From assembly GCA_003243965.1 (NCBI GenBank), contig QHBO01000016.1, positions 6,778-70,777 of the forward strand: a stretch of 64,000 nt of DNA. Reading direction: 5' to 3'. This document shows, in pieces, positions 7,402 to 49,681 of this stretch (positions within the stretch are counted from its first letter, which is position 1; the number at the start of each line of letters is the position of its first letter). The DNA is from Chloroflexota bacterium. Lineage in GTDB: Bacteria; Chloroflexota; Limnocylindria; QHBO01. The position numbers and the translations under genes are program-made. The notes beneath the pieces are model-generated. The model saw only the letters and a program-made list of their open reading frames with translations. It did no database searches and was not told the DNA's origin.

Positions 7402-7490
7402 TTGTCCGCGAGACGGTGCAAGAAGGGTGCTAGGGATCGCCGTTGCGGTGCGCGCCGTCAACGCCGCGCGCAGGTCATGATCGCCGCCGA

Positions 7491-9777: not shown

Positions 9778-10751
9778 GCGGCCTCCAGGGCCGGCTTGAC
9801 CTCGGTGACGACGCGCTCCATGGTCTCGGCGTCGTACGGCGCCGGGAAGCCGACGATGAAATGCCGGATGCCGAGCGCCATGTAGCGCCGCAGCCGCTCG
9901 ACCACCATCTCGACCGTGCCGACCGGCTGGTCGGTCCACAGGCGTGCGCGCCCGTTCTGCTCGAAGGTCCGCTCCAGGACGCGCCGCGCCTCCGCCGGGT
10001 CCTCCCGGATGATCATCACCCCAGTGCCGACGGTGCGCTCGATCGCCTGGGTGTCGCGCCCCACCTCGACGCAGTGGCGTCGCAGCACCTCGTCCTTGCG
10101 CCGCACGTTCTCCACCGAGCCGCCAAAGTTGGACGCATCCGCATAGCGGGCGACGGTGCGCAGCGTCCGACGTTCGCCGCCGCCGCCGATCAACAGCGGC
10201 AGTCGCCGCTGGACGGGCGCGGGATCGAGTCGCACCTCCCTGGCCCGGTAGTAACGGTCACCGCTCGGCCGGTGGCCGTCGAGCATGCCGCGCATGATGC
10301 GAGCTGCCTCGTCGAGCCAGCGCAGGCGTTCGCCCGGCGACCCGCCGAATTCGACCCCGTAGGCGGTGTGCTCGGTCTCGAACCACGCGCCGCCGATGCC
10401 CAGCACCGCGCGGCCCCGACTGATGTGGTCGAGCGTCGCCGCCATCTTGGCCACCAGCGCCGGGTTGCGGAACGTGTTCGCCCCGACCATCAGGCCGAGC
10501 CTGACCCGTTCGGTGGTCACGGCCCAGCCGGCGAGTGTCAGCCAGCCCTCCAGGATCGGACCATCCGCGTTTCCGATGATCGGGTACAGGTGGTCCCAGG
10601 TCCAAACGCTGTCGAACCCGAGCCGATCGGCCCGGACGCCGGCTTCCCCCAGCGACCGCCAGTCGGTGTACTGGTTCCAGCACAGCGCACCGAATCGGAC
10701 GCGCTCGCCGCCGACCGCGGACGGGGCCGTGCTCTCGCCCGTCGCGCTCAC
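9774..10751 (-). CDS. F420-dependent LLM-class oxidoreductase (paralog 2)
   Basis: Luciferase-like monooxygenase TIM-barrel motifs shared with the upstream paralog (WTWDHLYPI, MVGANTFRNPALVAKMA, LGIGGAWFETEH). GTG start overlaps the stop of paralog 1 (GTGA). Confidence 0.7.
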   Translation of the reverse strand: MSATGESTAPSAVGGERVRFGALCWNQYTDWRSLGEAGVRADRLGFDSVWTWDHLYPIIGNADGPILEGWLTLAGWAVTTERVRLGLMVGANTFRNPALVAKMAATLDHISRGRAVLGIGGAWFETEHTAYGVEFGGSPGERLRWLDEAARIMRGMLDGHRPSGDRYYRAREVRLDPAPVQRRLPLLIGGGGERRTLRTVARYADASNFGGSVENVRRKDEVLRRHCVEVGRDTQAIERTVGTGVMIIREDPAEARRVLERTFEQNGRARLWTDQPVGTVEMVVERLRRYMALGIRHFIVGFPAPYDAETMERVVTEVKPALEAA

Positions 10752-11704
10752 CGCGCAGCGGCCAGCAGGTGGTCGCGCAGGGCTGGCCTCACCTCGCCGA
10801 TGATGCGCTCCAGCGTCTCGATGTCCCACGGCGCCTGGGAGTCGAAGTAGATGTGCCGGAAGCCGATGTCCAGGTACGGCGCGAGCCTGTCGGCCAGCTG
10901 TTCCGGCGTGCCGACCCACTCGGGACCTCTCCACCCGCGGTGAGCGCGCCCGATCTCGGTCGCCACCCGGCGTGCCTCCGCGGGGTCGTCGCGCAGCACC
11001 ACCGAGCCCGCCTGGAGCGTGCGCTCGATCTCGGACTGGTCCCTACCGGTCTGCGCGCACCAATCCCGCAGGACCGCATCCTTGTGCTTCACGCGCTCCA
11101 CGTCGCCGCCCACGTTCCACGCGTCCGCGTAGCGCGCCACGGTCGCCAGCGTCTTGCGCTCCCCGCCCCCGCCGATCAGGATCGGCAGGCGACCCTGGAC
11201 CGGCGGAGGATCGTTGCGCACCGACTTGGCAGCGTAAAAGCGGCGGCCGCTGGGCGTGCTGCCGTCCAGCATCCCGCGCATGACCATCGCCGCCTCATCG
11301 AGCCAGTTGAGCCGCTCCCCGAAGCCGGAGCCGAAGTTGATGCCGTAGGCGATGTGCTCGGTTTCGAACCACGCCCCGCCGATCCCCAGCACGGCCCGCC
11401 CCCCGCTGATGTGGTCGAGGGTGGTCGCCATCTTGGCCACCAGGGCCGGGTTGCGGAACGTGTTCGCGCCGACCATCAGGCCGAGCGTGACCTTCCTGGT
11501 CGCCTGCGCCCACGCCGCGAGCGTCAGCCAGCCCTCGAAGATCGGCCCCTCGGCGTCACCGACGATCGGATACAGATGGTCCCACGTCCAGAGCGAGTCG
11601 TAGCCGAGCTCGTCGACCCTGCGGCCGATAGCCTCCAGCGACTCCCAGTCGGTGTATTGATTCCAGGCCAGAACGCCGAGCTTGAGCTCTCTTCCATCGG
11701 TCAT
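10748..11704 (-). CDS. F420-dependent LLM-class oxidoreductase (paralog 1)
   Basis: 318-aa LLM protein; high identity to 9774..10751, including identical peptide stretches and identical antisense shadow ORFs (MCSVSNHAPP...). Confidence 0.75.
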   Translation of the reverse strand: MTDGRELKLGVLAWNQYTDWESLEAIGRRVDELGYDSLWTWDHLYPIVGDAEGPIFEGWLTLAAWAQATRKVTLGLMVGANTFRNPALVAKMATTLDHISGGRAVLGIGGAWFETEHIAYGINFGSGFGERLNWLDEAAMVMRGMLDGSTPSGRRFYAAKSVRNDPPPVQGRLPILIGGGGERKTLATVARYADAWNVGGDVERVKHKDAVLRDWCAQTGRDQSEIERTLQAGSVVLRDDPAEARRVATEIGRAHRGWRGPEWVGTPEQLADRLAPYLDIGFRHIYFDSQAPWDIETLERIIGEVRPALRDHLLAAAR

Positions 11705-19248: not shown

Positions 19249-19818
19249 ATGCTGCGGCACCTGGTCGTGCAGGCGAGCCTCGGCGATCACGACGCGTTCG
19301 CCGAGCTGGTCGAGCGTGTCGCGAGCCGATGCCAGTCGACCGCCGTGCAGATCCTGCGTGACGGGGCACTCGCCGAGGAGGCTGCCCAGGAGGCGCTCAT
19401 CCGCGCCTGGCGCGATCTTCCGCGGCTGCGCGATCCCGATCGATTCGAGGCGTGGCTTCGGCGACTGCTGGTCCACGCCTGCTACGACGCCGCGCGACGG
19501 GAGCGGCGGCGGAGAGGCACCGAGCTGAAGCTGATGGCCGAGTCTCGTGGCGCGATGGCCAACGGCGCGGTGGCCGACGGCGGAACCGCCCTGGCCGAGC
19601 GCGACGCCCTGGAGCAGGTCCTGGCCGGCCTCTCACCCGCCCACCGCGCCGCGCTCGTGCTGCGCCACGTGCTGGACCTCAGTGTTCCGCAGGTCGCCGA
19701 GTCGCTCGGGGTCCCGATCGGCACCGCCAAGTCGCGCCTGCACCATGCCGAGGGTGCGCTGCGCGTGGCGCTCGAGCAGGAGGAGCGGGCCGCTGGCCAT
19801 GGCGAGGAGCAGGCATGA
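19249..19818 (+). CDS. ECF-family RNA polymerase sigma factor
   Basis: Sigma-70 regions 2 and 4 (AQEALIRAW...; LSVPQVAESLGVPIGTAKSRL); stop overlaps the next start (ATGA). Confidence 0.8.
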   Translation: MLRHLVVQASLGDHDAFAELVERVASRCQSTAVQILRDGALAEEAAQEALIRAWRDLPRLRDPDRFEAWLRRLLVHACYDAARRERRRRGTELKLMAESRGAMANGAVADGGTALAERDALEQVLAGLSPAHRAALVLRHVLDLSVPQVAESLGVPIGTAKSRLHHAEGALRVALEQEERAAGHGEEQA

Positions 19819-21406: not shown

Positions 21407-22414
21407 TCAGTACACGGCCGGCGCCGGCACGGAGCCCATGATCTGGCGGCCGTAGAGGTCGAGCTGATCCTCCTCATCGCCGTTCATCAGGTAGATGTTG
21501 AACTGGGTCACTCCGGCGTCTCGAAGCTCCTCGAGCCGCTCCCGGTGCGCCGATGCCGGCCCCACGACTGCCAGCCGATCAGTGATCTCGTCGGACACGA
21601 AGCGCGCGTTGTCGCTGCCAACCTCCGCGTGGTGCAGGTAGTCGTAGCCCTCGCGGTTCGCCACGTACCGCCACAGCGGCTCCGGCAGCTCCTCGCGCGG
21701 GTAGCGGCTGAGGAGGTCGACCACGTGGTTGCTGACCAGCGCGGGGAACCAGCGAACGCGCTCGCGCGCGGCGGCCATGTCGTCGGCGAGGTACGCGGGC
21801 GCAGCTGCCATCACCTCGATGGCATCGGGGTTGCGGCCGGCCTCCTCCGCGGCACGTCGCACGAAAGCGAGACACCAGCGGATGATGTCCGGGTCGGCGA
21901 GCTGCAGGATGATCCCGTCCGCCACTCGGCCGGCCGCGGCGAGCGCCTTGGGGCCGTAGCCGGCGATCCAGATCGGCACCGGGCCGTGTTCCGCCCAGGT
22001 CAGCTGGATGGCGGTGCCGTCCACCTCGATGGGCTCGCCGGCGGTCAGCGCCCGCACGATGCGGCACGCCTCCTCCAGGTACGCCACCGTGAGCGGCTTC
22101 TTGCCGGCCACGCGCACCGCGGAGTCGCCGCGCCCCATCCCGAGGTCCATGCGGCCGCCCGCGATCTCGTTCAGGGTCGCGAGCACGGAAGCCGTGACGG
22201 TCACGTCCCGCGTTCCCGGGTTGGTGACGCAGGTCCCGAGGCGCATCCGCTCTGTGCTGGCCGCGATCAACGTCAGGAGCGGGTACGGATCCCGCCACAG
22301 GATGTGGGAATCGAAGATCCAGCCGTAATCGAAGCCGTTGGACTCCGCCCGCGCTGCGAGGTCGACGGCACGCTGGTATCGGTATTCCGGCTTCAGCGTG
22401 ATCCCGAAGCGCAT
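21407..22414 (-). CDS. LLM-class (probably F420-dependent) oxidoreductase
   Basis: Start at MRFGITLKPEY (typical LLM N-terminus); luciferase-like barrel motifs; the upstream 96 codons of the track ORF are Ser/Thr-rich junk. Confidence 0.65.
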   Translation of the reverse strand: MRFGITLKPEYRYQRAVDLAARAESNGFDYGWIFDSHILWRDPYPLLTLIAASTERMRLGTCVTNPGTRDVTVTASVLATLNEIAGGRMDLGMGRGDSAVRVAGKKPLTVAYLEEACRIVRALTAGEPIEVDGTAIQLTWAEHGPVPIWIAGYGPKALAAAGRVADGIILQLADPDIIRWCLAFVRRAAEEAGRNPDAIEVMAAAPAYLADDMAAARERVRWFPALVSNHVVDLLSRYPREELPEPLWRYVANREGYDYLHHAEVGSDNARFVSDEITDRLAVVGPASAHRERLEELRDAGVTQFNIYLMNGDEEDQLDLYGRQIMGSVPAPAVY

Positions 22415-22448
22415 CTGATCCTCCTTCGCGGCGCGTTCATCGCGCCCG

Positions 22449-23297
22449 CTAGGGACGCACGAGGTCCTCGTAGGCGTCGGGCCGGCGATCGCGGTAGAAC
22501 TGCCACAGCTGGCGGACCTCGTCGATTGCGTCGAGGTCGAGGTCGCGCACGATGAGCTCTTCGCGGTGCGGGTCACCGACATCGCCCACGAACTGGCCGC
22601 GGGGATCGACGAAGTACGACTGGCCGTAGAAGTCGTCGTCGCCGAGCGGCTCGATACCGACCCGATTGATGGTGCCGACGAAGTAGCCGTTGGCCAGCGC
22701 ATGGCTCACCTGCTCGACGCGCCACAGGTATTCCGACAGGCCACGCGAAGTTGCAGACGGGATGAAGACCAGCTCCGCTCCGTTGAGCCCCAGCGCCCTG
22801 GCGCCCTCGGGGAAGTGGCGGTCGTAGCAGATGTAGACGCCGACCTTGCCGACCGCGGTGTCGAAGACCGGGTAGCCGAGGTTCCCGGGTCGGAAATAGA
22901 ACTTCTCCCAGAAGCCCTTGACCTGCGGGATGTGCGTCTTGCGGTACTTTCCCAGGTAGCTGCCATCGGCATCGATCACCGCGGCGGTGTTGTAGTAGAT
23001 GCCGCGGGCGTGCTCGTCCTCCTCGTACATCGGGACGATCAGCACCATGCCGGTCTCGCGGGCGAGCTCCTGCATCCGCTTGGTGGTGGGACCGTCGGGG
23101 ATGTGCTCGGTGTAGGAGAAATACTGAGGATCCTGCACCTGGCAGAAGTACGGCCCGTAGAAGAGCTCCTGGAAGCACATCACCTTCGCGCCCTGGGCCG
23201 CCGCCTCTCGGGCGTAACGCTCGTGCTTCTCGATCATCGACTCCTTCTCGCCGGTCCACTCCGCCTGGAGCAGGGCCGCACGGACGATGCGAGCCAT
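22449..23297 (-). CDS. carbon-nitrogen hydrolase (N-carbamoyl-amino acid amidohydrolase / beta-ureidopropionase-like)
   Basis: CN-hydrolase catalytic triad context: CFQE (Glu), KTH (Lys), ICYD (Cys); start at MARIVRAALLQ. Confidence 0.7.
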   Translation of the reverse strand: MARIVRAALLQAEWTGEKESMIEKHERYAREAAAQGAKVMCFQELFYGPYFCQVQDPQYFSYTEHIPDGPTTKRMQELARETGMVLIVPMYEEDEHARGIYYNTAAVIDADGSYLGKYRKTHIPQVKGFWEKFYFRPGNLGYPVFDTAVGKVGVYICYDRHFPEGARALGLNGAELVFIPSATSRGLSEYLWRVEQVSHALANGYFVGTINRVGIEPLGDDDFYGQSYFVDPRGQFVGDVGDPHREELIVRDLDLDAIDEVRQLWQFYRDRRPDAYEDLVRP

Positions 23298-38459: not shown

Positions 38460-38740
38460 CGGGCTTCCTGTGGTAACGGGGAGGATGGTGAGCTCAGACC
38501 GGGGTCACGAGTCGACACCTGCGGAAACCGCGCCCCGCAGGGGCGGTTCGGTGGCGAAGTGTAGCAAAGGCATGCGGCGTCTCCTCGCCCGCCGCCACCG
38601 CGGCAGCCCGACGGCGGGCACCCTTCGGACCGATCGACGGGACCTGCCGCATAATCGGCGCTTGGTGCTGCGGCCAGAGCGCGGCGTGGGGCGACAGGAG
38701 CTGGGTGGGAGGCACGGGGCGTGAAGCACCGGACCACGGC

Positions 38741-39706
38741 ATGAGCCTGGTCGTCGATCACATCTCCAAGCGCTTCGGGACGATCCTTGCCCTCGACGAC
38801 GCGACCTTCACCGTCGAGCCGGGACGCATCTTTGGTCTGCTTGGCGCGAACGGGGCGGGCAAGACGACCTCGATGCGAATCGTGCTGGACATCCTGCGCC
38901 CCGACTCGGGAACGGTGACCTGGGAGGGGCGACCGAACACCGCTCTGCCGCGGCGGACGTGGGGCTACCTGCCAGAGGAGCGCGGCCTCTACCTGCGTAT
39001 GCGCGTCGCCGAGGTGCTGCGCTTCTTCGCCTCCCTGTACGGCGTCTCATCGGCCGATGCGTCCGGCGAGGTCGACGCCTGGCTCGAGCGATTCCGGATC
39101 GCCGACTACCTGAACAGAAAGGTCGAGGAGCTGTCGAAGGGGAACCAGCAGAAGATCCAGTTCATAGCCTCGATCCTCCACGACCCCCAGGTGCTGATCA
39201 TGGACGAGCCGTTCTCCGGGCTCGACCCGGTCAACGTGCAACTGCTCAAGGAAGCGTTCCTGGCGATGCGCGATCGAGGCAAGACGCTGATCTTCTCGAC
39301 GCACCAGATGGAGACGGTGGAGGAGCTGTGCGAGTCGATCGCCATCCTCGATCGCGGCCGGGTGGTGGTCAGCGGCGCCGTCCGGGACGTCAAACGCGCG
39401 ATGGGACGCCAGGTGGTCCGCCTGGCCGTCGATGGGGATGGCACCGGCTGGGTGGAGCAGATCCCGGGCGTGCAGCTCACGCGTCGGGGGGAGGACTATC
39501 TCGAGCTCCATGTCGCGAGTGGCAGCGACCCCGAGGAGGTCCTGCGCGCAGCGCTCGCCCGCGGCGACCGGGTGACCCGTTTCGAGATCGCCGACCCGTC
39601 GTTGGAGGAGATCTTCATCGAGCACGTGGGCAGGCGCGCCGAGGAGCCGGAACGCCACCTCGCGGAGGTGGCCACAGCCCCCGACACCGGAGCGCAAGAC
39701 CGATGA
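38741..39706 (+). CDS. ABC transporter ATP-binding protein (ABC-2 exporter type)
   Basis: GANGAGKTT Walker A, LSKGNQQK signature, LIMDEP. Confidence 0.8.
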   Translation: MSLVVDHISKRFGTILALDDATFTVEPGRIFGLLGANGAGKTTSMRIVLDILRPDSGTVTWEGRPNTALPRRTWGYLPEERGLYLRMRVAEVLRFFASLYGVSSADASGEVDAWLERFRIADYLNRKVEELSKGNQQKIQFIASILHDPQVLIMDEPFSGLDPVNVQLLKEAFLAMRDRGKTLIFSTHQMETVEELCESIAILDRGRVVVSGAVRDVKRAMGRQVVRLAVDGDGTGWVEQIPGVQLTRRGEDYLELHVASGSDPEEVLRAALARGDRVTRFEIADPSLEEIFIEHVGRRAEEPERHLAEVATAPDTGAQDR

Positions 39707-41013
39707 GCGGGCTCTTTCCGAACGCGTGGTACATCGCTCGACGCGAATACCTCGTTCGCGTGCGCAGCCGCGCCTTCGTGATCATGACCGCGATCCTGGC
39801 CCTGGTCGGCCTGGGCCTGGCGCTCGCCCCCGTCGGCTTCCGGATGCTGGGTGCCGATCGTCCGCAGCGCCTGGGCGTCGTCATCTCTGCCGCTGATCCG
39901 CCGCCTCGGACGCTGGGGCTCCTCGGTGGCGGCTTGAACCCCCCGAGCGCGGCCGGCCAGGCCGACGGCGGCACGCCCCGGTCGGCGAACTACGAGCTTG
40001 TCCCGGTCAGCGATCCGATCGCCGCCAGACGCGACGTTCAGGACGGCCGGCTGAACGGCCTGCTGACCATCGGCCGAAGCAGCTCCGGAGACCTGGCCTT
40101 TGACTACTTTGGGGACAGCAGTCCCACCTCGCGCTCGCTGGCGGCCGTCCAAGCCGCCTCCCAACAGCTGGCCATCTCGGACCGCCTGACGCGCGCTGGG
40201 GTGCGCGATCCGTCCGCCATCTTCACGCCGGTCGGCTTCCGGGTCGAGCCGCTCGATCCCAACGCCGGCCGGCGCGACACCGCGGCCTCCGTCGCCGCCT
40301 ATCTGCTCGCGACGGTCCTGGTGGTGCTCACCTTCATGGCGATCATGACCTACGGAAACTGGGTCGCCGGCAGCGTTGCGGAGGAGAAGAGCAGTCGCGT
40401 GATGGAGCTGCTGATCACCGCCGCCAGCCCTCGACAGCTGCTCGCCGGCAAGGTGATCGGCACCTGCGCTGCGGGCCTGACCCAATACCTGGCGATCCTG
40501 GGCGCCGCCCTGGTGGGTGTCATCCTGTCCGGCCCCCTGTCGCGCGCGATCGTGGGCGGCTCCGGGGCCAGCTCCCCGTTTGCAGGGGTCACCATCCCGG
40601 TGCTCATCGTATTCGGCCTCTTCTTCCTCGGCGGCTTCGTCCTGTACGCGGCCGTGTACGCCGCCCTGGGCTCGATGGTGAGCCGCCAGGAGGACGTCCA
40701 GCAGATGGTCGGGCCGATGACCCTGGTCGGCGTGGTGGGCTACTTTGCGGCCTTCACGGCGCTCAGCACCCCCGACTCCGGATGGGTCCACGTTCTCTCG
40801 TTCGTCCCGTTCTTCGCGCCGTATTTCATGCCTCTGCGGCTGGTGCTCTCGACCGTGACGCCCCTGGAGGTGGTGTTCAGCGCGCTCCTGCTGGTGGCCG
40901 GGATCGTGATCGTCCACTCGCTCGCGGCACGCATCTACTCCGCCGGCGTGCTGCTCTACGGCCAGCGACCCGGAATCCGGGCCGTGTGGCGCGCCGCCCG
41001 CGTGCGTCGCTGA
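39703..41013 (+). CDS. ABC-2 family permease with large extracytoplasmic loop
   Basis: ATGA coupling; N-terminal TM, ~180-aa loop, then 5 TM helices. Confidence 0.55.
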   Translation: MSGLFPNAWYIARREYLVRVRSRAFVIMTAILALVGLGLALAPVGFRMLGADRPQRLGVVISAADPPPRTLGLLGGGLNPPSAAGQADGGTPRSANYELVPVSDPIAARRDVQDGRLNGLLTIGRSSSGDLAFDYFGDSSPTSRSLAAVQAASQQLAISDRLTRAGVRDPSAIFTPVGFRVEPLDPNAGRRDTAASVAAYLLATVLVVLTFMAIMTYGNWVAGSVAEEKSSRVMELLITAASPRQLLAGKVIGTCAAGLTQYLAILGAALVGVILSGPLSRAIVGGSGASSPFAGVTIPVLIVFGLFFLGGFVLYAAVYAALGSMVSRQEDVQQMVGPMTLVGVVGYFAAFTALSTPDSGWVHVLSFVPFFAPYFMPLRLVLSTVTPLEVVFSALLLVAGIVIVHSLAARIYSAGVLLYGQRPGIRAVWRAARVRR

Positions 41014-41026
41014 GCACCACAGCCCG

Positions 41027-41578
41027 GTGAGCCGCGGGCTGACCGTCGCCGGCCGACGCCTGGAGCTCGTCCGCGGCGACATCACGACCCAGGCCCTGGA
41101 TGCCATCGCCAACGCGGCCAACGCCGCCCTGCGCGGGGGAGGCGGCGTGGACGGCGCGATCCACACCGCCGCCGGGCCAGGCGTGCTGGACGAGCTGCGC
41201 TCGCGATACCCGTCCGGAACGCCGACCGGGACCGCGGTGGCCACCGCGGCCGGTCGCCTGAAGGCGCGCTGGCTGATTCACGCCGTCGGCCCAGTGTGGA
41301 CCGGCGGCACCCATGGCGAGGAAGCGCTGCTGGCAGCGGCGTACCGGTCGTCGCTCGCAGCGGCGGATCGGCTCGGGGCGCGGAGCCTCGCGTTGCCGGC
41401 AATCAGCCTCGGCATCTACCGCTTTCCGCTGCGGGCCGGAGCGCGGATCGCGCTCGACGCCGTGCTGCACCACTTCGGCGGTGAGACGTCGCTGGAGCTG
41501 GTGCGCTTCGTCCTCTATTCCGACGAGACGTTGTCCGCCTTCTCGGTGGCGCTGGACGAGCTCGCGCCGCCTGCATAG
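41027..41578 (+). CDS. macro domain protein (O-acetyl-ADP-ribose deacetylase / ADP-ribose-binding, YmdB-like)
   Basis: NAANAALRGGGGVDGAIH motif diagnostic of macro domains. Confidence 0.7.
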   Translation: MSRGLTVAGRRLELVRGDITTQALDAIANAANAALRGGGGVDGAIHTAAGPGVLDELRSRYPSGTPTGTAVATAAGRLKARWLIHAVGPVWTGGTHGEEALLAAAYRSSLAAADRLGARSLALPAISLGIYRFPLRAGARIALDAVLHHFGGETSLELVRFVLYSDETLSAFSVALDELAPPA

Positions 41579-42777: not shown

Positions 42778-42841
42778 CGGCCGATGGTAGTCGCTCGAAT
42801 GGCGGCCGCGACCGATGGAGTGTTCGGCTAGGCTTTCGAGC

Positions 42842-43855
42842 ATGACCGCGCCGCATCAGGACTCGCATCCCGACGCAGGCGCACCATCCCCGGGGCAGGC
42901 GGAGGCCGCACTCCCTCCGGACTCTCGCGCCGCGTCCCCGCCCGAGCCGGCGATCCGCACCGAGAGGCTGACCAAGCGCTACGGAAGGGTGCCCGCGCTG
43001 AACGCGCTGACGCTCGACGTCCAGCAGGGCGAGATCTTTGGCTTCCTTGGTCCGAACGGCGCGGGAAAGTCGACGACGATCCGAACCCTGCTGGGCTTCC
43101 TCCATCCGACCGACGGCCGTGCCAGCGTCCTGGGCCTGGACGTGGCGACCCAGAGCGTCGAGATCAGGCGTCGGACCGGATACCTTCCCGGTGGCATCGC
43201 GCTGTACGACTCGCTGACCGGGATGGGCGCCCTGGACTACCTCGCGGAGCTGCAGGGTCGGCCTCCGGTTCGTCGCGCCGAGCTCGCGGACCGCCTTCAG
43301 CTGTCGGCCACCGTCCTGCGCCGCCGCGTGCGGGACTACTCACGAGGGATGCGGCAGAAGATCGGGGTCATCCAGGCCCTGCAACACGACCCGGAGCTGG
43401 CGATCCTGGACGAGCCCACGGAGGGGCTCGATCCGCTCATGCAGCAGGCCTTCTACGCCATCCTGCTGGACCTCCGGCGCGAGGGCCGCACCGTCTTCTT
43501 CAGCTCGCACATCCTGTCCGAGGTGGAACGCGTCTGCGACCGGGTCGCCATCATCCGGGCCGGCCAGCTGATGGCGCTGCAGCACATCGACGAGCTGCTG
43601 GCGCGGCGCAAGCGCAAGGTGGCGCTGCGCTGGCGCGGAGGGACCCCCGACCTGTCGGCCATCCCCGGGCTTGCGGACGTGACGGTCCATCGCGACCAGG
43701 TGCGGGCCACGTTGCAGGGAGCCATGGCGCCCTTCATCCGCGCCATCGCGTCCCCATCGCTCGAGGACCTGACGATCGAGCCGGCGAGCCTGGAGGAGGC
43801 GTTTCTCGAGTTCTACGCCGATGGTGACGATAACCCCGCGGAGGTCGCCGGATGA
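42842..43855 (+). CDS. ABC transporter ATP-binding protein (ABC-2 type)
   Basis: GPNGAGKST Walker A, YSRGMRQK signature, ILDEP. Confidence 0.75.
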   Translation: MTAPHQDSHPDAGAPSPGQAEAALPPDSRAASPPEPAIRTERLTKRYGRVPALNALTLDVQQGEIFGFLGPNGAGKSTTIRTLLGFLHPTDGRASVLGLDVATQSVEIRRRTGYLPGGIALYDSLTGMGALDYLAELQGRPPVRRAELADRLQLSATVLRRRVRDYSRGMRQKIGVIQALQHDPELAILDEPTEGLDPLMQQAFYAILLDLRREGRTVFFSSHILSEVERVCDRVAIIRAGQLMALQHIDELLARRKRKVALRWRGGTPDLSAIPGLADVTVHRDQVRATLQGAMAPFIRAIASPSLEDLTIEPASLEEAFLEFYADGDDNPAEVAG

Positions 43856-44655
43856 ACGGCGCGCTGCTCGTCCAGACCTGGCGCTGGCAGGCCGTCAAGC
43901 TGGCGATCGTGGCGCTCTGCGCGGTCGGCTGGGGATGGCTGCTGCCCCTCTTCTACGCGCAGTTCTCCGACTCGATCCGCACATTGGCCGCCCAGAACCC
44001 GCTCTTCCAGCAGCTCTCGAACTTTGGCTCCGGGTCGCTGCTGACACTCCCCGGCACGGTGACGCTCGGCACCGAGCACCCGATCGCCATCGCGCTGCTC
44101 GGCGTCTTCGCGATCGGCATGGGCGCCGTCGCGGTCGCCGGCGAGCGCCAGCGCGGCACCCTGGAGGTGCTGCTCGCCCGCCCGATCCCACGTCGAGGCC
44201 TGGTGATGACCCTGACCGTGGCGCTCTTTGGGCTGATCGCGGTGGTGATCGCCGCGATGCTGGCCGGGATGACGCTGGGAGCCGCGACCCAGGGAGTCTT
44301 CGACCAGCTGAACGTCAGCCGCCTGCCACTGGTGTGGGTCAATGGGTTCCTGCTGTGGGCGGCATTCGGCACCTTCGCCATCGCGGCATCGGTCAGCTTC
44401 GACCGCAGCGGGCCGGCCATCGGTCTGTCGCTGGCGTACCTGATGGTCAACTACTTCCTGGAGATCCTGGGCACCTTCGTGCCCGGCGCCCGGTGGGCCC
44501 AGGAGTACTCGCTGTTCCACCACTTCCAGCCGACCGAGATCCTCACCGGCTCGGCTGACCCGCTCGACTTCGTGCTGTTACTGGCGGTGGCCGTGATCCC
44601 CGTCGTCTACGCGCTGGTTGTCTTCCCGCGCCGCGACCTTCCGGCACCGGGATGA
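43852..44655 (+). CDS. ABC-2 family permease
   Basis: ATGA coupling to the ATPase gene; 6 hydrophobic helices. Confidence 0.55.
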   Translation: MNGALLVQTWRWQAVKLAIVALCAVGWGWLLPLFYAQFSDSIRTLAAQNPLFQQLSNFGSGSLLTLPGTVTLGTEHPIAIALLGVFAIGMGAVAVAGERQRGTLEVLLARPIPRRGLVMTLTVALFGLIAVVIAAMLAGMTLGAATQGVFDQLNVSRLPLVWVNGFLLWAAFGTFAIAASVSFDRSGPAIGLSLAYLMVNYFLEILGTFVPGARWAQEYSLFHHFQPTEILTGSADPLDFVLLLAVAVIPVVYALVVFPRRDLPAPG

Positions 44656-47279
44656 AGAGCGCCGCGGGCCTCGGCGATCGCCTCGTCGGTCGACATTCGA
44701 CTCCCGCGCACCCAGGCTGCGGCCGTGACGGGGTCGTGGCGCAGCCGATCGGGTTGGAATCCGAGGAGATCCCGGTTCGTCGGGTTGAGTCCCGTGCCGG
44801 ACGACGTCTCCAGCGCCGCAACGGCGCCCGACAGACGGGCCGCCCGCTGCCGGTCTCCCTGCGCTTCCGCCAGCGCGGCGACGGCATCGAGTACCAGGAC
44901 GTAGCCCGACACGTCACGGGCCGCGGCGAAGATCTCGAGCGCCTCTGACAGGTGAAGCTGCGCTTCGTCGAGGGTCCGCAGCTTCACCGCCACGACGCCC
45001 AGATCGTAGAGGGTCCATCCAACCATGAACTCGTCATCGAGCTCTCGGAAGATGGGCAGCGCCTGAAGACCGGCGTCGCGCGCGGCGGATAGCTGGTTGG
45101 TCGTCCAGCCCAGGTTGGCAAAGGCCCACATCACCTTTGCGACTCCCGCTTTGTCGCCGATCTCCTCAAAGAGCGCACGCGCCTCGTTGGTGAGCTCCTC
45201 TCCCCGCACGTAGTCGGCATCCGAGCCACTGAACGCGAACGTGAACGACAGGTTGTAGATCGCCTCCGCGGTCGCGCGTCGGTCGCCCTGGGCGCGCCGC
45301 AGCGCCAGGCATGCGTCGTACGCCTCGCGTGCGGGGCCGAGCTCACCCTTCCACCAGGCGAGGCCGCCGAGTGCCTCGAGCGCATCGGCGCGCAGCACCG
45401 TTTCATGCTCCGCGCCCGCCATGGCCAGGGCACGGCGGACCTGCTCGAAGCCCTCCACCAGGTAGCCGCGCATCTGCCACATGCGCCACAGGCCGGCGGT
45501 CATGCGCAGGGCCAGCTCCGGCTCGTCGTTGTCGACGGCCCAAGAGATCGCGGCCCGCAGGTTGTCGTGCTCGTCCTCGAGGCGATCGAGCCACTCGCGC
45601 TTCTGCGCACCGAGCAACTGTGGTCGCGCCGTTTCCACCAGTCCGGCGAAGAGTCGGGCATGGCGTCGCCGCAGGTCGGTGGCGTCGCCCGATCGCTCGA
45701 GCTGCTCGAGGGCAAAGTCCCGGATCGTCTCGAGCATCCCGAACCGTGGTTGGCCACGCGCATCGGTCACCTGGCGCACCAGGCTCTTGTCGACCAGGGA
45801 GCTCAACACATCGAGCAGATCCTCGCCCCCGTCATCGGTGGCGCACACCGACTCCACCGCCTCGAGCCCGGCGCCACCGACGAACACGGACATGCCGGCA
45901 AACAACCTCCGCTCGGCGTCGTCGAGCATGTCATGGCTCCAGCCGATGGCGCCTCGCAACGTCTGCTGGCGCTCGGGGAGGTCGCGCGCCCCGCCGGAGA
46001 GCAGCGAGAGGCGGTGGGCGAGCCGCTGCAGCATCGCGTCGGGGGTCAGCACCCGGATGCGCGCCGCGGCCAGCTCGATCGCCAGTGGTAGACCGTCCAG
46101 GCTGACCGCGATCTGGGCAACCGCCGGCGCGTTCTCGTTCGTGACCCGGAAATCGGGTTTGACCGCGACCGCGCGCTCGATGAACAGGCGGACCGCCTCG
46201 TACTGGGAGATCGCTTCGACATTTCGGTCACGAAGCGGGTCGGGGAGGCCGAGCGGGGGCACCGGGTACTCACGCTCCCCGTACAGGTGGAGCACGGCGC
46301 GGCTGGTGACGAGCACCGTGAGGCGCGCGGCCGAGGTGAGCAGCTCGCCAACCACCGGCGCTGCGGAGGCGACCTGCTCGAAGTTGTCGAGCACGAGCAG
46401 CATGGTCCGCTCGCGCAGATGCTCGCGCAGCCGGTCGAGCGGCTCCAGGCCGCCGCGGTTGGCGATACCGATCTCCTGCGCAATGGTCGGCGCAACCAGC
46501 TCGGCGTCGCCAATCGGAGCCAGCGCGACGAAGTAGACCCCGTCGGGGAAGCGATCCAGCGCATCCGCCGCGACCTGAAGGCTGAGCCTGGTCTTGCCTG
46601 TCCCACCCGGCCCGGTAAGCGTCAGCAGGCGAGCCTGGCCGAGCAGCTCCCTGACCTCGGCGATCTCACGCTCCCGGCCGAGGAAGCTCGAATTCTGGAC
46701 CGGGAGGTTGTTGGGAATGACGTCGAGCGAGCGGACCTGTCGATCGTCGACCGGGAGCCCTTCGATCAGGAGCCGGTTGAGGCGTTCACTCCGCTCGAGG
46801 TCCTTGAGCCGATGCTCACCGAGGTCGAGCAGCGTGACGCCATCGGGCAACAGGTGCTCAACGAGCGCTGCCGTCGGGGCGGAGAGCAGCACCTGCCCGC
46901 CGTGCCCGGCCGCAGCGATCCGGGCCGCGCGGTGCACGTCGATCCCGACGTACGAGCTCCCGCTCGGCGTCCCCTCGCCGGTGTGAAGTCCCATCCGGAC
47001 TCGCAGCGGCATGTCGCCAGGCCACTGCTCGGCGGCCAGCGCCCGCTGTGCCGCGACGGCCGCTGCCACGCTGCGCGGCGCGCTCGGGAAGACCGCGAAG
47101 ATTGAGTCGCCCTCGGTGCCGACCACCGCGCCACCCTCGGCGGTGACCGACTCGCGCAGCAGCAGGTGGTGACGTTCGAGCAGCGAGGTGTAGCGGTCAC
47201 CGAGCGCCTGGAGCATCCGGGTCGAGCCCTCGATGTCGGTGAACAGGAAGGTGACCGTGCCCGCGGGCAGGGTGCTCAT
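44607..47279 (-). CDS. class III adenylate/guanylate cyclase fused to STAND (NB-ARC/AAA) ATPase and TPR repeats
   Basis: N-terminal CHD motifs (FLFTDIEGST, VRMGLHTGE, GIDVHRAARI); Walker A GPGGTGKT; long helical repeat region; no C-terminal LuxR HTH. Confidence 0.7.
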   Translation of the reverse strand: MSTLPAGTVTFLFTDIEGSTRMLQALGDRYTSLLERHHLLLRESVTAEGGAVVGTEGDSIFAVFPSAPRSVAAAVAAQRALAAEQWPGDMPLRVRMGLHTGEGTPSGSSYVGIDVHRAARIAAAGHGGQVLLSAPTAALVEHLLPDGVTLLDLGEHRLKDLERSERLNRLLIEGLPVDDRQVRSLDVIPNNLPVQNSSFLGREREIAEVRELLGQARLLTLTGPGGTGKTRLSLQVAADALDRFPDGVYFVALAPIGDAELVAPTIAQEIGIANRGGLEPLDRLREHLRERTMLLVLDNFEQVASAAPVVGELLTSAARLTVLVTSRAVLHLYGEREYPVPPLGLPDPLRDRNVEAISQYEAVRLFIERAVAVKPDFRVTNENAPAVAQIAVSLDGLPLAIELAAARIRVLTPDAMLQRLAHRLSLLSGGARDLPERQQTLRGAIGWSHDMLDDAERRLFAGMSVFVGGAGLEAVESVCATDDGGEDLLDVLSSLVDKSLVRQVTDARGQPRFGMLETIRDFALEQLERSGDATDLRRRHARLFAGLVETARPQLLGAQKREWLDRLEDEHDNLRAAISWAVDNDEPELALRMTAGLWRMWQMRGYLVEGFEQVRRALAMAGAEHETVLRADALEALGGLAWWKGELGPAREAYDACLALRRAQGDRRATAEAIYNLSFTFAFSGSDADYVRGEELTNEARALFEEIGDKAGVAKVMWAFANLGWTTNQLSAARDAGLQALPIFRELDDEFMVGWTLYDLGVVAVKLRTLDEAQLHLSEALEIFAAARDVSGYVLVLDAVAALAEAQGDRQRAARLSGAVAALETSSGTGLNPTNRDLLGFQPDRLRHDPVTAAAWVRGSRMSTDEAIAEARGALHPGAGRSRRGKTTSA

Positions 47280-47357
47280 CGGACGCTCCTAGCTGGCTCG
47301 CGCAGTTTCCGCCTCGACGGGCGGATCGGCAAGGCCCAACTCGGCTACCCTCCGCCG

Positions 47358-48339: not shown

Positions 48340-49110
48340 TCAGTGTCCCAGCGTCGCGGCCAGGCGGACCGCCGCCTCCAGCGTCCCCGCGCCCTCGATC
48401 CGGACCGTGACGCCGGATTGCTCAAAGACCAGCGCGTCTCCAACCAGCCGCATGCTGGAATCCACGATCTGCCCGTTCGCATCGCGGTAGAAGAAGAAAT
48501 GCTCGCCGCCGGCAATCCAGTACGCCGCCTGACCGTTGACGCTCGTGCGTCGCACCCCCGTTCCGGTGGTGATCAGCTTCTCGAACACCTCTGGACCGAT
48601 GTCGCCGCGGAACTCCGTGATCGCCACGCCGATGCCTGTGGGGTCGGCGGGGTATCCAGCACGCGCAGCGTAGACCAGCGTCACCGTGCCGCCGACGGGG
48701 ATCCGCTCGAAGAAGATGTGATCGGGCTTGCCTGGTCCGCCGGCGCCCGGCACCAGAATCGTGAAGCCGGCACGCCGGCGCGCCTCGTCGAGGCTGACCT
48801 CGATGCCGAAGTTGCGCTCCGAGACGACCCCGGAGGGGAGAGGTACCGGCGTGCGCTCGGTGAAGGTGATTCGCACCCCCCCGACCAGGAAGCCGAGCGC
48901 GGCCGCGATCCCCGCCAGGAGCACGAGCGCCGCGGCCGCCAGCAGGAAGCTCCTGCCCAGCGGGCCGAAGAAGCGGCGGCGGCTCGCCGAAGTGGCGGCG
49001 AGCCGGACGCGCACCATGTCCGCCAGCGGGGGCGTGGCCGGGAAGTCGAGGTGCCCTCCCAGATCGGCCAGCCCCGCCTCGAGGCCCTGCACGTCGAATC
49101 GGTCAGCCAT
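48340..49110 (-). CDS. membrane-anchored anti-sigma factor (single TM, extracytoplasmic domain)
   Basis: Immediately downstream of and overlapping the ECF sigma gene; TM FLLAAAALVLLAGIAAALGFLV. Confidence 0.45.
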   Translation of the reverse strand: MADRFDVQGLEAGLADLGGHLDFPATPPLADMVRVRLAATSASRRRFFGPLGRSFLLAAAALVLLAGIAAALGFLVGGVRITFTERTPVPLPSGVVSERNFGIEVSLDEARRRAGFTILVPGAGGPGKPDHIFFERIPVGGTVTLVYAARAGYPADPTGIGVAITEFRGDIGPEVFEKLITTGTGVRRTSVNGQAAYWIAGGEHFFFYRDANGQIVDSSMRLVGDALVFEQSGVTVRIEGAGTLEAAVRLAATLGH

Positions 49111-49681
49111 CGATGCGCACCTGCCGCGTGTCGGCGGAGAGCGCTGCCCGGAGGCGGCCCATGGCCCGCGACAGGCGGGACTTCACCGTTCCGCGCGGGA
49201 TTCCCAGCGCAGCCGCCATCTCCGCCTCGCCCAGGTCCAGGAACCAGCGAAAGGCGAGCACCTCGCGGTCCTCGTCCCGCAGGCCGTTGACGGCGGCGAG
49301 CAGCTCCTGCCGGCGCTCGCCGGCCAGGACCGCCGCCTCGGGCGATGGAGCCGCACCACCCGAGGGGCGATCCTGCGCAAGTCGCAGAGCGAGGCTCTCG
49401 CGGCGGGTGCTGCCTCGCCGACGGTTTCGCGCCGCGTTGGCCACGATCTGCAGGATCCATGGCCGTGGCTCCGCACCGGCCCGAAAGCGCGGCAGCGCGT
49501 GCCAAGCCCGGACAAAGCCTTCCTGCGCCGCATCGCGGGCCTCGTCGGCGTCGCGGCAGATCAGGACGGCCGTGCGGAAGGCGAGCATCTCGTATCGACG
49601 CACCAGCTCCTCGTACGCGGCGACATCGCCGCGCCTTGCTCGCTCGATCAGATCGCTATCGGTCAGTGGACGGCCCTCCAC
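49103..49681 (-). CDS. ECF-family RNA polymerase sigma factor
   Basis: Regions 2 and 4 conserved (AAQEGFVRAW; LGIPRGTVKSRLSRA). Confidence 0.8.
   Translation of the reverse strand: MEGRPLTDSDLIERARRGDVAAYEELVRRYEMLAFRTAVLICRDADEARDAAQEGFVRAWHALPRFRAGAEPRPWILQIVANAARNRRRGSTRRESLALRLAQDRPSGGAAPSPEAAVLAGERRQELLAAVNGLRDEDREVLAFRWFLDLGEAEMAAALGIPRGTVKSRLSRAMGRLRAALSADTRQVRIDG

What the first reader, a model, noticed from the sequence alone, without database searches (positions are those of the whole stretch)
44607..47279. Adenylate cyclase–STAND ATPase–TPR fusion without an output HTH
The 890-aa protein has an N-terminal class III cyclase catalytic domain followed by a Walker-A NB-ARC/AAA-type NTPase and a long TPR-like helical array. 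Related mycobacterial proteins end in a LuxR HTH; this one does not, so the cyclase is the only apparent output. The layout is a STAND-type ligand-gated switch producing cAMP or cGMP. STAND NTPases are increasingly tied to conflict and defence systems, and the cyclase output here is uncharacterised.
Basis: partly seen in the sequence, partly recalled or inferred. Interest (0 to 1): 0.55.

Follow-up and report, generated by a model that had tools for sequence, protein, structure and literature searches.

The report
Cyclase fused to STAND–TPR switch
This is a real gene for a soluble signalling enzyme: a cyclic-nucleotide cyclase fused to an ATP-driven molecular switch and a helical-repeat sensor. 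It belongs to a very large, already catalogued bacterial family, and nothing around it points to anti-phage defence.

Summary
The 890-aa ORF (44607..47279, minus strand) is real. It has the stated layout: a class III cyclase domain (aa 6-172), a STAND NTPase module (196-531) and an arm plus TPR array (532-830), with no LuxR/GerE HTH. The one "HTH" Pfam match (HTH_77) was not positioned; the predicted winged helix at aa ~452-531 lies inside the switch module.

The cyclase core is intact. Both metal aspartates and the arginine are invariant. His116 replaces the canonical Asn, as it does at the aligned position of the Rv1900c cyclase structure. The base-specifying pair is Gly54/Ser109, neither the ATP nor the GTP signature, so the product cannot be read from sequence.

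Lacking an HTH is not unusual. The 120 closest homologues and nearly all of the 150 best 50%-identity cluster representatives have the same HTH-less layout. JGI already annotates such proteins as "predicted ATPase/class 3 adenylate cyclase".

The gene is monocistronic in a housekeeping region. Its position is syntenic across Limnocylindria-type Chloroflexota, dN/dS is about 0.14, and no effector or defence gene is adjacent.

Most likely it is a ligand-gated STAND switch that activates the cyclase by induced dimerisation, probably making cAMP. Verdict: a new member of a known kind, of low interest.

The parts
44607..47279 (-). Complete gene: 890-aa cyclase-STAND-TPR protein (ATG 47279, stop 44607-44609)
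   Evidence: GC3 0.86; a protein differing at one residue (P0001) is on two public contigs
47286..47290 (-). AGGAG ribosome-binding site, 6 nt upstream of the ATG
   Evidence: sequence read
46764..47264 (-). Class III cyclase homology domain (aa 6-172). Metal Asp15 and Asp58, His116 in place of Asn, Arg120, Gly54/Ser109 at the base-specifying positions
   Evidence: Pfam PF00211; PDB alignments to Ma1120 and Rv1900c; Foldseek TM 0.91-0.93; residue conservation
46695..46763 (-). Linker (aa 173-195), lower model confidence, containing the conserved PNNLP motif
   Evidence: pLDDT 60-64 for aa 181-200; N191 and P193 invariant
46260..46694 (-). STAND nucleotide-binding domain (aa 196-340). Walker A GPGGTGKT (aa 223-230, nt 46590-46613), Walker B LLVLDNFE (aa 294-301, nt 46377-46400), sensor-I-like Ser326-Arg327
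   Evidence: Pfam NB-ARC/AAA_22/nSTAND1; invariant K229, D298, N299, E301, S326, R327
45930..46259 (-). STAND helical domain (aa 341-450) with invariant DGLPLA (aa 395-400, the GxP motif)
   Evidence: invariant columns; helices in the AF2 model; family profile 172-531 aligns to AfsR residues 269-619, which span the AfsR NOD, Ala271-Glu618 (PMC10936776)
45687..45926 (-). Winged-helix domain of the STAND module (aa 452-531). This is the most likely location of the Pfam HTH_77 hit and is not a separate output HTH
   Evidence: H454-465, H472-479, H488-497, hairpin E502-505/E511-514, H517-530; HTH_77 listed without coordinates; lies inside the AfsR NOD alignment
44790..45686 (-). Arm plus TPR sensor array (aa 532-830), about 14 paired helices
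   Evidence: Pfam TPR_12 x3 and weak TPR_MalT; NCBIfam HaaT TPR region; LGN/Pins and Rap TPR hits; pLDDT above 90; lowest conservation of the folded domains
44607..44789 (-). C-terminal helical cap (aa 831-875) and disordered basic tail (876-890). No DNA-binding domain
   Evidence: helices 832-875, pLDDT below 50 for 880-890; no Pfam hit; cap motif conserved in relatives
42815..44655 (+). Context only: convergent ABC ATPase and ABC-2 permease genes. The permease 3' end overlaps the cyclase gene 3' end by 49 nt
   Evidence: synteny in L001-L007, L048, L063
47358..48329 (+). Context only: divergent EamA-family transporter gene, 78 nt from the cyclase start codon
   Evidence: synteny

Best explanation
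The gene encodes a soluble one-polypeptide signal transducer of the effector-NOD-sensor (STAND) type, in three parts. An N-terminal class III cyclase domain is the effector. A MalT/AfsR/PH0952-like nucleotide-binding oligomerisation module (NBD, helical domain, winged helix) is the switch. An arm plus TPR array is the sensor. Proposed mechanism (inferred): at rest the protein is an ADP-bound closed monomer, and its single cyclase domain cannot form the dimer-interface active site that class III cyclases require. An unknown cytoplasmic ligand then binds the arm/TPR and releases autoinhibition. ADP is exchanged for ATP and the NOD multimerises. The N-terminal cyclase domains pair into homodimers with complete active sites and make a cyclic nucleotide, most probably cAMP. 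That nucleotide acts on receptors encoded elsewhere in the genome. This is housekeeping signal transduction in a Limnocylindria-type Chloroflexota bacterium, not an immune system.
For: Shown: the three modules are present, in the order typical of STAND proteins with an N-terminal effector. The cyclase catalytic core is kept. D15, D58 and R120 are invariant in 120/120 close homologues, and D58 and R120 in all 67 aligned sequences of the wider set, where D15 is D in 66 and E in 1. Position 116 is His or Asn. His occupies the same aligned position in the Rv1900c cyclase structure 1ybt. The ATPase motifs are invariant: Walker A K229, Walker B D298/E301, S326-R327 and DGLPLA. All domains are under purifying selection: dN/dS is 0.12 for the cyclase, 0.12 for the NOD and 0.16 for the TPR. 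The gene is monocistronic, lying between a convergent ABC exporter and a divergent EamA gene. That arrangement is conserved among genomes whose proteins are only 54-59% identical. The same NOD-TPR chassis carries other signalling effectors in relatives: SARP in AfsR, Ser/Thr kinase (PknK-type) and LuxR. Inferred from the literature: STAND activation by inducer binding, ADP/ATP exchange and multimerisation (PMC6468293, PMC4381067, PMC10936776). From my own knowledge: class III cyclases need dimerisation for catalysis. The nearest characterised relative by architecture, Rv0386, is an adenylyl cyclase with about 20% guanylyl cyclase side activity (PMC4452763).
Against: No activity, ligand or oligomeric state is known for this protein or, as far as I could find, for any HTH-less bacterial member. 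The base-specifying residues are Gly54/Ser109 instead of Lys/Asp, so cAMP is a guess. Position 109 is not conserved even among orthologues (T/D/G/S/N). The transition-state Asn is replaced by His. No cNMP receptor or phosphodiesterase was found among the roughly 50 window ORFs scanned. For the analogous STAND region of mammalian full-length soluble adenylyl cyclase, no nucleotide or other regulator acting through it has been found (PMC12802110). STAND control of a cyclase therefore has no experimental precedent.
Confidence: 0.55

Rival explanations
1. Anti-phage or conflict system. The TPR-STAND part acts as a pattern-recognition receptor for a phage protein, and the cyclase makes a cyclic-nucleotide alarm (Pycsar-like, possibly cCMP/cUMP) that triggers an effector encoded elsewhere.
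For: Many bacterial STAND NTPases are defence receptors (PMC13581612). cNMP cyclase domains occur as signal generators in predicted conflict systems (PMC7159879). There are weak PADLOC PycC matches (25.6 and 21.1 bits, aa 9-78). The base-specifying residues are non-canonical and vary between paralogues. Tandem paralogues occur in 7 of 79 loci.
Against: The PycC matches cover only the generic N-terminal cyclase core. There is no Avs, bNACHT or other STAND defence model hit. No effector gene is adjacent, and the gene is monocistronic between convergent and divergent transporter genes. Neighbours give only generic ABC-ATPase partial matches in PADLOC. The 64-kb window is housekeeping throughout. 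The locus is syntenic across genomes with 54-59% protein identity, unlike fast-turnover defence islands. TPR dN/dS is 0.16, not elevated. Only 3 weak, unannotated hits appear in 50,697 phage records.
Confidence: 0.07
2. Pseudo-cyclase. The N-terminal domain no longer cyclises nucleotides and serves as a nucleotide-binding or dimerisation module. The real output is protein-protein interaction through the oligomerised STAND/TPR scaffold.
For: The canonical Lys and Asp (Ma1120 K101/D157) are Gly54/Ser109, and the transition-state Asn is His116 (PMC4215837). The related Rv1358 and Rv2488c lack some catalytic residues (PMC4452763). Inactive cyclase domains are reported in other multidomain proteins (PMC7159879).
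Against: Both metal-binding aspartates and the triphosphate/transition-state Arg120 are invariant among 120 close homologues and essentially so among 67 aligned sequences of the wider set (one D15E). H116 is conserved in 119/120 and alternates only with the canonical Asn in the wider family. His occupies the same aligned position in the Rv1900c cyclase structure. Cyclase-domain dN/dS is 0.12. Such conservation of purely catalytic residues is not expected for a scaffold.
Confidence: 0.18
3. Same switch, different product. The enzyme is a guanylyl cyclase, or a promiscuous or pyrimidine nucleotidyl cyclase, rather than an adenylyl cyclase.
For: The adenine-specifying Lys/Asp pair is absent. Ser, Thr or Gly at the second position is what guanylyl cyclases show (PMC4215837). 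Rv0386 has 20% GC side activity (PMC4452763). Relatives show many residue pairs at these positions: K-D, R-E, G-S, G-T, D-G.
Against: The Glu that replaces Lys in guanylyl cyclases (PMC4215837) is absent, since Gly54 occupies that position. Position 109 drifts among orthologues, which suggests it is not used for base recognition. From my own knowledge, Rv1900c also lacks the Lys yet prefers ATP.
Confidence: 0.2

Closest known systems
Mycobacterium tuberculosis Rv0386 / Rv1358 / Rv2488c (Mclx1-3: cyclase-AAA/NB-ARC-(TPR)-LuxR)
   Same: N-terminal class III cyclase domain followed by a STAND-type P-loop NTPase. Substrate-specifying residues are non-canonical. Rv0386 is an active adenylyl cyclase with GC side activity (PMC4452763).
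   Different: The mycobacterial proteins end in a LuxR/GerE HTH and so have two potential outputs. This protein ends in a TPR cap with no GerE match.
Ma1120 (M. avium) and Rv1900c/LipJ (M. tuberculosis) cyclase domains
   Same: These are the closest solved cyclase structures: E 4e-20 and 1e-13, about 32% identity, TM 0.91-0.93. They share the short arm region and the metal Asp pair and Arg. Rv1900c shares His at the Asn position.
   Different: Ma1120 is a stand-alone cyclase domain with canonical K101/D157. Rv1900c is fused to an alpha/beta-hydrolase. Neither has a STAND-TPR module.
AfsR (Streptomyces), MalT (E. coli), PH0952 (Pyrococcus): STAND regulators with a TPR sensor
   Same: NOD-arm-TPR chassis. 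The family profile aligns to the whole AfsR NOD (E 3e-22), and the top Foldseek hit is PH0952 over 736 columns. The same autoinhibition and multimerisation logic is expected (PMC6468293, PMC10936776).
   Different: Their effector is a DNA-binding domain (SARP, LuxR, ArsR-like). Here it is an enzyme that needs dimerisation.
Full-length mammalian soluble adenylyl cyclase (ADCY10, sACfl)
   Same: Class III cyclase catalytic region followed by a predicted STAND P-loop domain and possible TPRs (PMC12802110, PMC3475452). How the STAND part regulates the cyclase is unknown in both cases.
   Different: sAC has two tandem catalytic domains (a C1-C2 pseudo-heterodimer) and therefore does not need oligomerisation to form a site. 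It also has haem and autoinhibitory segments and is eukaryotic. Homology of the STAND parts was not tested here.
PknK-type Ser/Thr kinase-STAND-TPR proteins of actinobacteria
   Same: The NOD-TPR part is 34-36% identical over aa ~190-880 to proteins annotated protein kinase/PknK on Rhodococcus plasmids. The logic is the same: an enzymatic effector on a STAND switch.
   Different: The effector is a kinase, not a cyclase.
Pycsar (PycC cyclase plus effector) anti-phage systems
   Same: A class III-type cyclase fold producing a cyclic mononucleotide.
   Different: Pycsar is a two-gene operon with a TM or TIR effector and a small stand-alone cyclase. Here there is no partner gene, a STAND-TPR fusion, and only a 25-bit partial HMM match.

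Membership tests
Class III nucleotidyl cyclase (Pfam PF00211) | Sequence match to the cyclase homology domain above the curated threshold | tested here: met
   31.1 bits against a gathering score of 21.9, aa 6-141; PDB profile hit to Ma1120 at E 5e-30
Class III nucleotidyl cyclase (Pfam PF00211) | Cyclase fold (beta-alpha-beta-beta-alpha-beta core) | tested here: met
   AF2 model superposes on Ma1120 and Rv1900c with TM 0.83-0.93 and rmsd 1.6-3 A
Class III nucleotidyl cyclase (Pfam PF00211) | Two metal-binding aspartates | tested here: met
   D15 and D58 align to the FTDIxxST and GD motifs of Ma1120 and Rv1900c. Both are invariant in 120/120 close homologues. In the wider set of 67 aligned sequences D58 is invariant and D15 is D in 66 and E in 1
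Class III nucleotidyl cyclase (Pfam PF00211) | Transition-state Asn and Arg | tested here: inconclusive
   Arg120 is present and invariant. Asn is replaced by His116, as at the aligned position of Rv1900c. The wider family has H (34) or N (32) at this position
Class III nucleotidyl cyclase (Pfam PF00211) | Substrate-specifying pair (Lys/Asp for ATP, Glu/Cys-type for GTP) | tested here: not met
   Gly54 and Ser109 align to Ma1120 K101 and D157 (PMC4215837). This deviation is known for some active mycobacterial cyclases, so it affects the specificity call rather than family membership
Class III nucleotidyl cyclase (Pfam PF00211) | Cyclase activity and a dimeric active site | not testable with these tools
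   Needs an enzyme assay and an oligomer analysis
STAND NTPase (MalT/AfsR/PH0952-like, TPR sensor) | P-loop NBD with Walker A, Walker B and a sensor-I Arg | tested here: met
   GPGGTGKT 223-230, LLVLDNFE 294-301 and S326-R327 are invariant; NB-ARC 25.9 bits against 23.5
STAND NTPase (MalT/AfsR/PH0952-like, TPR sensor) | Helical domain with a GxP motif, followed by a winged-helix domain | tested here: met
   DGLPLA 395-400 is invariant; a winged helix is predicted at 452-531; Pfam HTH_77 is listed but not positioned; the profile aligns across the AfsR NOD 269-619
STAND NTPase (MalT/AfsR/PH0952-like, TPR sensor) | C-terminal repeat sensor (TPR) and overall NOD-arm-sensor fold | tested here: met
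   TPR_12 x3; Foldseek top hit 6mfv PH0952 at E 3.5e-12 over 736 columns, then Apaf-1, CED-4 and plant NLRs
STAND NTPase (MalT/AfsR/PH0952-like, TPR sensor) | Inducer-dependent ADP/ATP switch and multimerisation | not testable with these tools
   Requires biochemistry
Mycobacterial cyclase/LuxR (Mclx: Rv0386-type) | C-terminal LuxR/GerE HTH | tested here: not met
   No GerE or other DNA-binding Pfam family at E <= 0.1. The C-terminus is a helical TPR cap plus a disordered tail. GerE was not among the 25 families most often matched in 36 longer relatives
Pycsar | Cyclase gene in an operon with a TM/TIR effector gene | tested here: not met
   The flanking genes are convergent and divergent transporter genes. 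No partner is conserved across 79 loci
Pycsar | Full-length match to PycC models | tested here: not met
   Only aa 9-78 match, at 25.6 and 21.1 bits
Defence STAND (Avs / bNACHT / CARD-NLR-like) | Match to defence STAND models, a toxic effector domain, or location in a defence island | tested here: not met
   No such PADLOC hit. The neighbours are not defence genes. The context is a syntenic housekeeping locus

The most novel reading that the evidence does not exclude
The Gly54/Ser109 cyclase of this Limnocylindria clade makes a non-canonical or mixed cyclic nucleotide (for example cCMP/cUMP or cGMP) once its TPR sensor has bound an unknown ligand and the STAND module has assembled. If so, it would be the first demonstrated case of STAND oligomerisation switching a nucleotidyl cyclase on, and it would be a tractable bacterial model for the unexplained STAND region of mammalian soluble adenylyl cyclase.
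Probability: 0.1. Interest if true: 0.55.

Novelty: new member of a known kind. Interest (0 to 1): 0.2.

Why it matters
For this window it matters little. The gene is one ordinary representative of a very large, already annotated family. A search with the whole protein gave 69,741 clusters at 50% identity with E <= 1e-30, a count that also includes STAND-TPR proteins carrying other effectors.

The family as a whole has some value. I found no published test of how a STAND switch controls a cyclase. The parallel question for full-length mammalian soluble adenylyl cyclase is still open (PMC12802110). A small soluble bacterial member such as this one, with invariant catalytic and ATPase motifs, would be a reasonable in vitro model.

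The spread of residues at the base-specifying positions among paralogues (K-D, R-E, G-S, D-G and others) also hints at unexplored product diversity.

Tried and rejected
- **NOD-only PDB search.** A phmmer search of the PDB with the NOD region alone (aa 188-620) found nothing. The family profile was needed to reach AfsR.
- **De novo clustering of flanking ORFs in 79 loci.** The largest cluster (31 loci) consisted of low-complexity antisense ORFs typical of high-GC DNA and was discarded. The next clusters (a flavin oxidoreductase in 18 loci, an MFS transporter in 10) are unrelated housekeeping genes with no fixed orientation.
- **Paralogue in the window.** None was found.
- **Literature look-ups.** The Rv1900c structure paper could not be retrieved by DOI or PMC id, and a term search for its residues found nothing. 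Statements on Rv1900c activity and mutagenesis therefore rest on my own knowledge. The body of the 2004 actinobacterial cyclase survey is not held.
- **STAND atlas.** The supplementary tables of the 2026 STAND atlas are not held, and its main text does not mention cyclases. The defence score of this clade in that atlas could not be checked.
- **PADLOC hits on the neighbouring ABC ATPases** (mad3, AriA, mad8). I rejected these as generic ABC-ATPase similarity, because the matches are partial and each gene sits beside an ABC-2 permease gene.
- **RNA genes.** No tRNA or Rfam family is present in the window.
- **HTH_77 as a hidden output HTH.** I consider this unlikely. The only winged helix in the model lies inside the NOD alignment, at the canonical winged-helix position. 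The position of the HTH_77 match itself was not obtained.


Full report
**Observation**

An 890-codon ORF runs on the minus strand from ATG 47279 to the stop at 44607. An AGGAG lies six bases upstream of the ATG. Third-position GC is 0.86 and second-position GC is 0.48, the signature of true coding frames in this ~70% GC window. A protein differing at a single residue (P0001) is on record from two public assemblies. A 97%-identical orthologue lies in a Chloroflexota MAG (L001). Against that orthologue, dN/dS is 0.14 for the whole gene, 0.12 for the cyclase part, 0.12 for the NTPase part and 0.16 for the TPR part. All domains are therefore under purifying selection, though the substitution counts are small.

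**Anatomy: sequence evidence**

Pfam gives these matches above the gathering score:
- Guanylate_cyc, aa 6-141
- NB-ARC, aa 215-329, and AAA_22
- three TPR_12 stretches

Weaker matches to nSTAND1, AAA_16 and TPR_MalT are also listed. No GerE/LuxR or other DNA-binding family appears at E <= 0.1. NCBIfam shows partial matches only: the LipJ cyclase domain (aa 10-159), the AfsR NOD (178-535) and a TPR protein (564-814).

**Anatomy: structure evidence**

An AlphaFold2 model built on 60 homologues has mean pLDDT 87. Foldseek against the PDB gives:
- the STAND-with-TPR-sensor protein PH0952 (6mfv) as top hit, E 3.5e-12 over 736 columns
- the Ma1120 and Rv1900c cyclase domains at TM 0.83-0.93
- Apaf-1, CED-4 and plant NLRs

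The family profile aligns positions 172-531 to AfsR residues 269-619. That range spans the AfsR NOD, Ala271-Glu618 (PMC10936776).

**The one "HTH"**

Precomputed Pfam annotation lists a strong HTH_77 (PF25872) hit. That model is absent from the local Pfam copy, so I could not place it on the sequence. The model shows three helices, a beta-hairpin wing and a further helix at aa 452-531. This is the canonical winged-helix position of a STAND module, and it lies inside the AfsR NOD alignment. I infer that this is what HTH_77 detects, and that it is a structural part of the switch, not an output DNA-binding domain. The C-terminus (aa 831-890) is a helical cap plus a disordered basic tail.

**Catalytic residues**

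- Alignment to the solved Ma1120 and Rv1900c domains identifies D15 and D58 as the metal-binding aspartates and R120 as the conserved arginine.
- The PDB also holds a Ma1120 "KDA to EGY" specificity mutant. Its sequence differs from wild type exactly at the columns aligned to query G54, S109 and A119.
- The alignment offsets put G54 opposite Ma1120 K101 and S109 opposite D157, the substrate-binding pair (PMC4215837).
- The canonical transition-state Asn is His116. Rv1900c also has His at that column.

Conservation of these positions:

| Position | 120 closest homologues | 67 aligned sequences, 38-59% identity: 66 from other genomes plus the query |
|---|---|---|
| D15 | 120/120 | D 66, E 1 |
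| D58 | 120/120 | invariant |
| R120 | 120/120 | invariant |
| 116 | H 119/120 | H 34, N 32 |
| 54 | G 105/120 | G, R, K, D and others |
| 109 | T/D/G/S/N | D, S, E, G, T and others |

The commonest 54/109/116 combinations in the wider set are K-D-N (10), R-E-H (8) and G-S-N (7).

The domain is therefore not a degenerate pseudo-cyclase. The Lys/Asp versus Glu/Cys rule gives no answer for this protein. The drift at position 109 among orthologues suggests that this residue is not used for base recognition. cAMP is the default expectation: the nearest characterised relative by architecture, Rv0386, is an adenylyl cyclase with about 20% guanylyl cyclase side activity (PMC4452763). Product identity remains an inference.

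**NTPase motifs**

Walker A (GPGGTGKT, 223-230), Walker B (LLVLDNFE, 294-301), S326-R327 (sensor-I-like) and DGLPLA (395-400, the GxP motif) are invariant in the alignments. A working nucleotide switch is expected.

**Is the missing HTH unusual?**

No.
All 120 listed (56-61% identity, 874-1155 aa) carry cyclase, STAND and TPR Pfam families and no GerE. JGI already calls many of them "predicted ATPase/class 3 adenylate cyclase".
- The exhaustive search of 50%-identity cluster representatives found 69,741 clusters at E <= 1e-30. That figure includes STAND-TPR proteins with other effectors.
- The 150 best representatives are almost all colinear matches, from aa ~1-10 to ~815-880 of the query, in proteins of 863-1000 aa.
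- I scanned the 36 longest of them. Their extra length is mostly more TPRs. Three carry a protein kinase domain and three an XRE-type HTH. GerE was not among the 25 most frequent families.

The LuxR-ended mycobacterial proteins (PMC4452763) are thus a side branch of a much larger HTH-less family.

**Distribution**

Relatives occur in Chloroflexota (Limnocylindria, Ktedonobacteria, Anaerolineae), Dormibacterota, Actinomycetota, Armatimonadota and rhizobial chromids. The same NOD-TPR chassis carries SARP (AfsR), Ser/Thr kinase (PknK-type) and LuxR effectors in actinobacteria. Seven of 79 loci hold tandem paralogues.

**Context**

- The gene is monocistronic. Downstream, an ABC ATPase gene and an ABC-2 permease gene converge on it, and the 3' ends overlap by 49 nt.
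- Upstream, 78 nt away, an EamA transporter gene diverges from it.
- Further out lie an ECF sigma factor with a putative anti-sigma partner, an amidohydrolase, a macro-domain protein and a FAD oxidoreductase.
- The rest of the window encodes housekeeping functions: F420 biosynthesis, asd and hom, the pntAB transhydrogenase, moaA, a Znu-type transporter and others.
- There is no tRNA or Rfam element and no second copy of the gene.
- The ABC and EamA flanks are conserved in about nine Limnocylindria-type genomes whose cyclase proteins are only 54-59% identical. This indicates long vertical inheritance at a fixed locus.
- Across the wider family no neighbour is conserved.

**Defence reading**

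- PADLOC gives only partial PycC matches (aa 9-78; 25.6 and 21.1 bits) and no defence STAND model.
- The neighbours give only generic ABC-ATPase partial hits.
- Only three weak, unannotated metagenomic "Bacteriophage sp." contigs match among 50,697 phage records.
- Cyclase domains do occur in predicted conflict systems (PMC7159879), and many STAND clades are defensive (PMC13581612).
- This gene shows none of the contextual marks, so I put the defence reading at about 0.07.

**Mechanism**

Shown: the domain order effector-NOD-arm-sensor, intact cyclase and ATPase motifs, and purifying selection on every domain.

Inferred from characterised STAND proteins (PMC4381067, PMC6468293, PMC10936776), and from my own knowledge that class III cyclases need a dimer:
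1. The resting protein is an ADP-bound, autoinhibited monomer with an incomplete active site.
2. Ligand binding at the arm/TPR permits ADP/ATP exchange and multimerisation.
3. Multimerisation pairs the N-terminal cyclase domains and switches on cNMP synthesis.

The ligand, the product and the downstream receptor are unknown. No cNMP-binding gene was seen among the window ORFs scanned. The closest conceptual parallel is full-length mammalian soluble adenylyl cyclase. It has a predicted STAND P-loop region downstream of its catalytic domains, and no regulator acting through that region has been found (PMC12802110, PMC3475452).

**Verdict**

This is a new member of a known, very large and already annotated kind. 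Its one mildly interesting feature is the non-canonical Gly/Ser specificity pair on an otherwise intact cyclase. Interest is 0.2.

Noticed in passing
window 41027-41578 (+): A stand-alone macro-domain protein (ADP-ribose binding/hydrolase type, Pfam E 8e-35) sits between two DrrA-like ABC exporter pairs. It is conserved in the same position in L001-L004 and L048.
   Followed up: partly
window 38705-41013 (+) and 42815-44655 (+): Two paralogous ABC ATPase plus ABC-2 permease pairs (DrrAB-like exporters) lie within 6 kb. The second pair's permease gene overlaps the cyclase gene's 3' end by 49 nt in convergent orientation, and this overlap is kept in orthologous loci.
   Followed up: partly
window 48340-49681 (-) and 19249-19818 (+): There are two ECF sigma factor genes. 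The first is followed by a 256-aa ORF with no Pfam match, possibly its anti-sigma factor; this pair is also found in L001 and L002.
   Followed up: no
window 7491-11704 (-) and 21407-22702 (-): F420 cofactor genes (cofE-like F420 ligase, cofD) lie next to three luciferase-like, probably F420-dependent, monooxygenase genes.
   Followed up: no
window 6181-7587 (-): A Ser/Thr protein kinase gene (Pkinase, E 6e-45) is another eukaryote-like signalling gene in the window. It is unlinked to the cyclase gene.
   Followed up: no
L040, L044, L049, L052 (also L050, L058, L067): Tandem or nearby second copies of cyclase-STAND-TPR genes, 41-46% identical to the query, indicate lineage-specific paralogue expansion.
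   Followed up: partly
P0129 (3933 aa) and P0247 (1692 aa): Very long relatives match the NOD-TPR part of the query, and the 3933-aa protein does so in five separate stretches. They may be concatenated STAND modules or fused gene calls.
   Followed up: no
P0177, P0254, P0262 and others in alignment A2: Among the 36 longest close relatives, three also carry a Ser/Thr kinase domain and three an XRE-type HTH (HTH_3/HTH_31). Match offsets of ~300-350 residues in three ~1330-aa members suggest N-terminal additions. These would be two-effector variants of the same switch.
   Followed up: partly
H1-H3: MT838110.1, MT835530.1, MT836681.1: Three unannotated 'Bacteriophage sp.' contigs from human faecal metagenomes encode 34-41% identical relatives, and H1 covers aa 9-753 including the cyclase. 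Whether they are truly viral or mis-binned was not examined.
   Followed up: no
loci L001-L079: Paralogues and orthologues fall into discrete residue classes at the two base-specifying positions plus the Asn/His position: K-D-N, R-E-H, G-S/T-N, D-G-H and others. These may correspond to different nucleotide specificities.
   Followed up: partly
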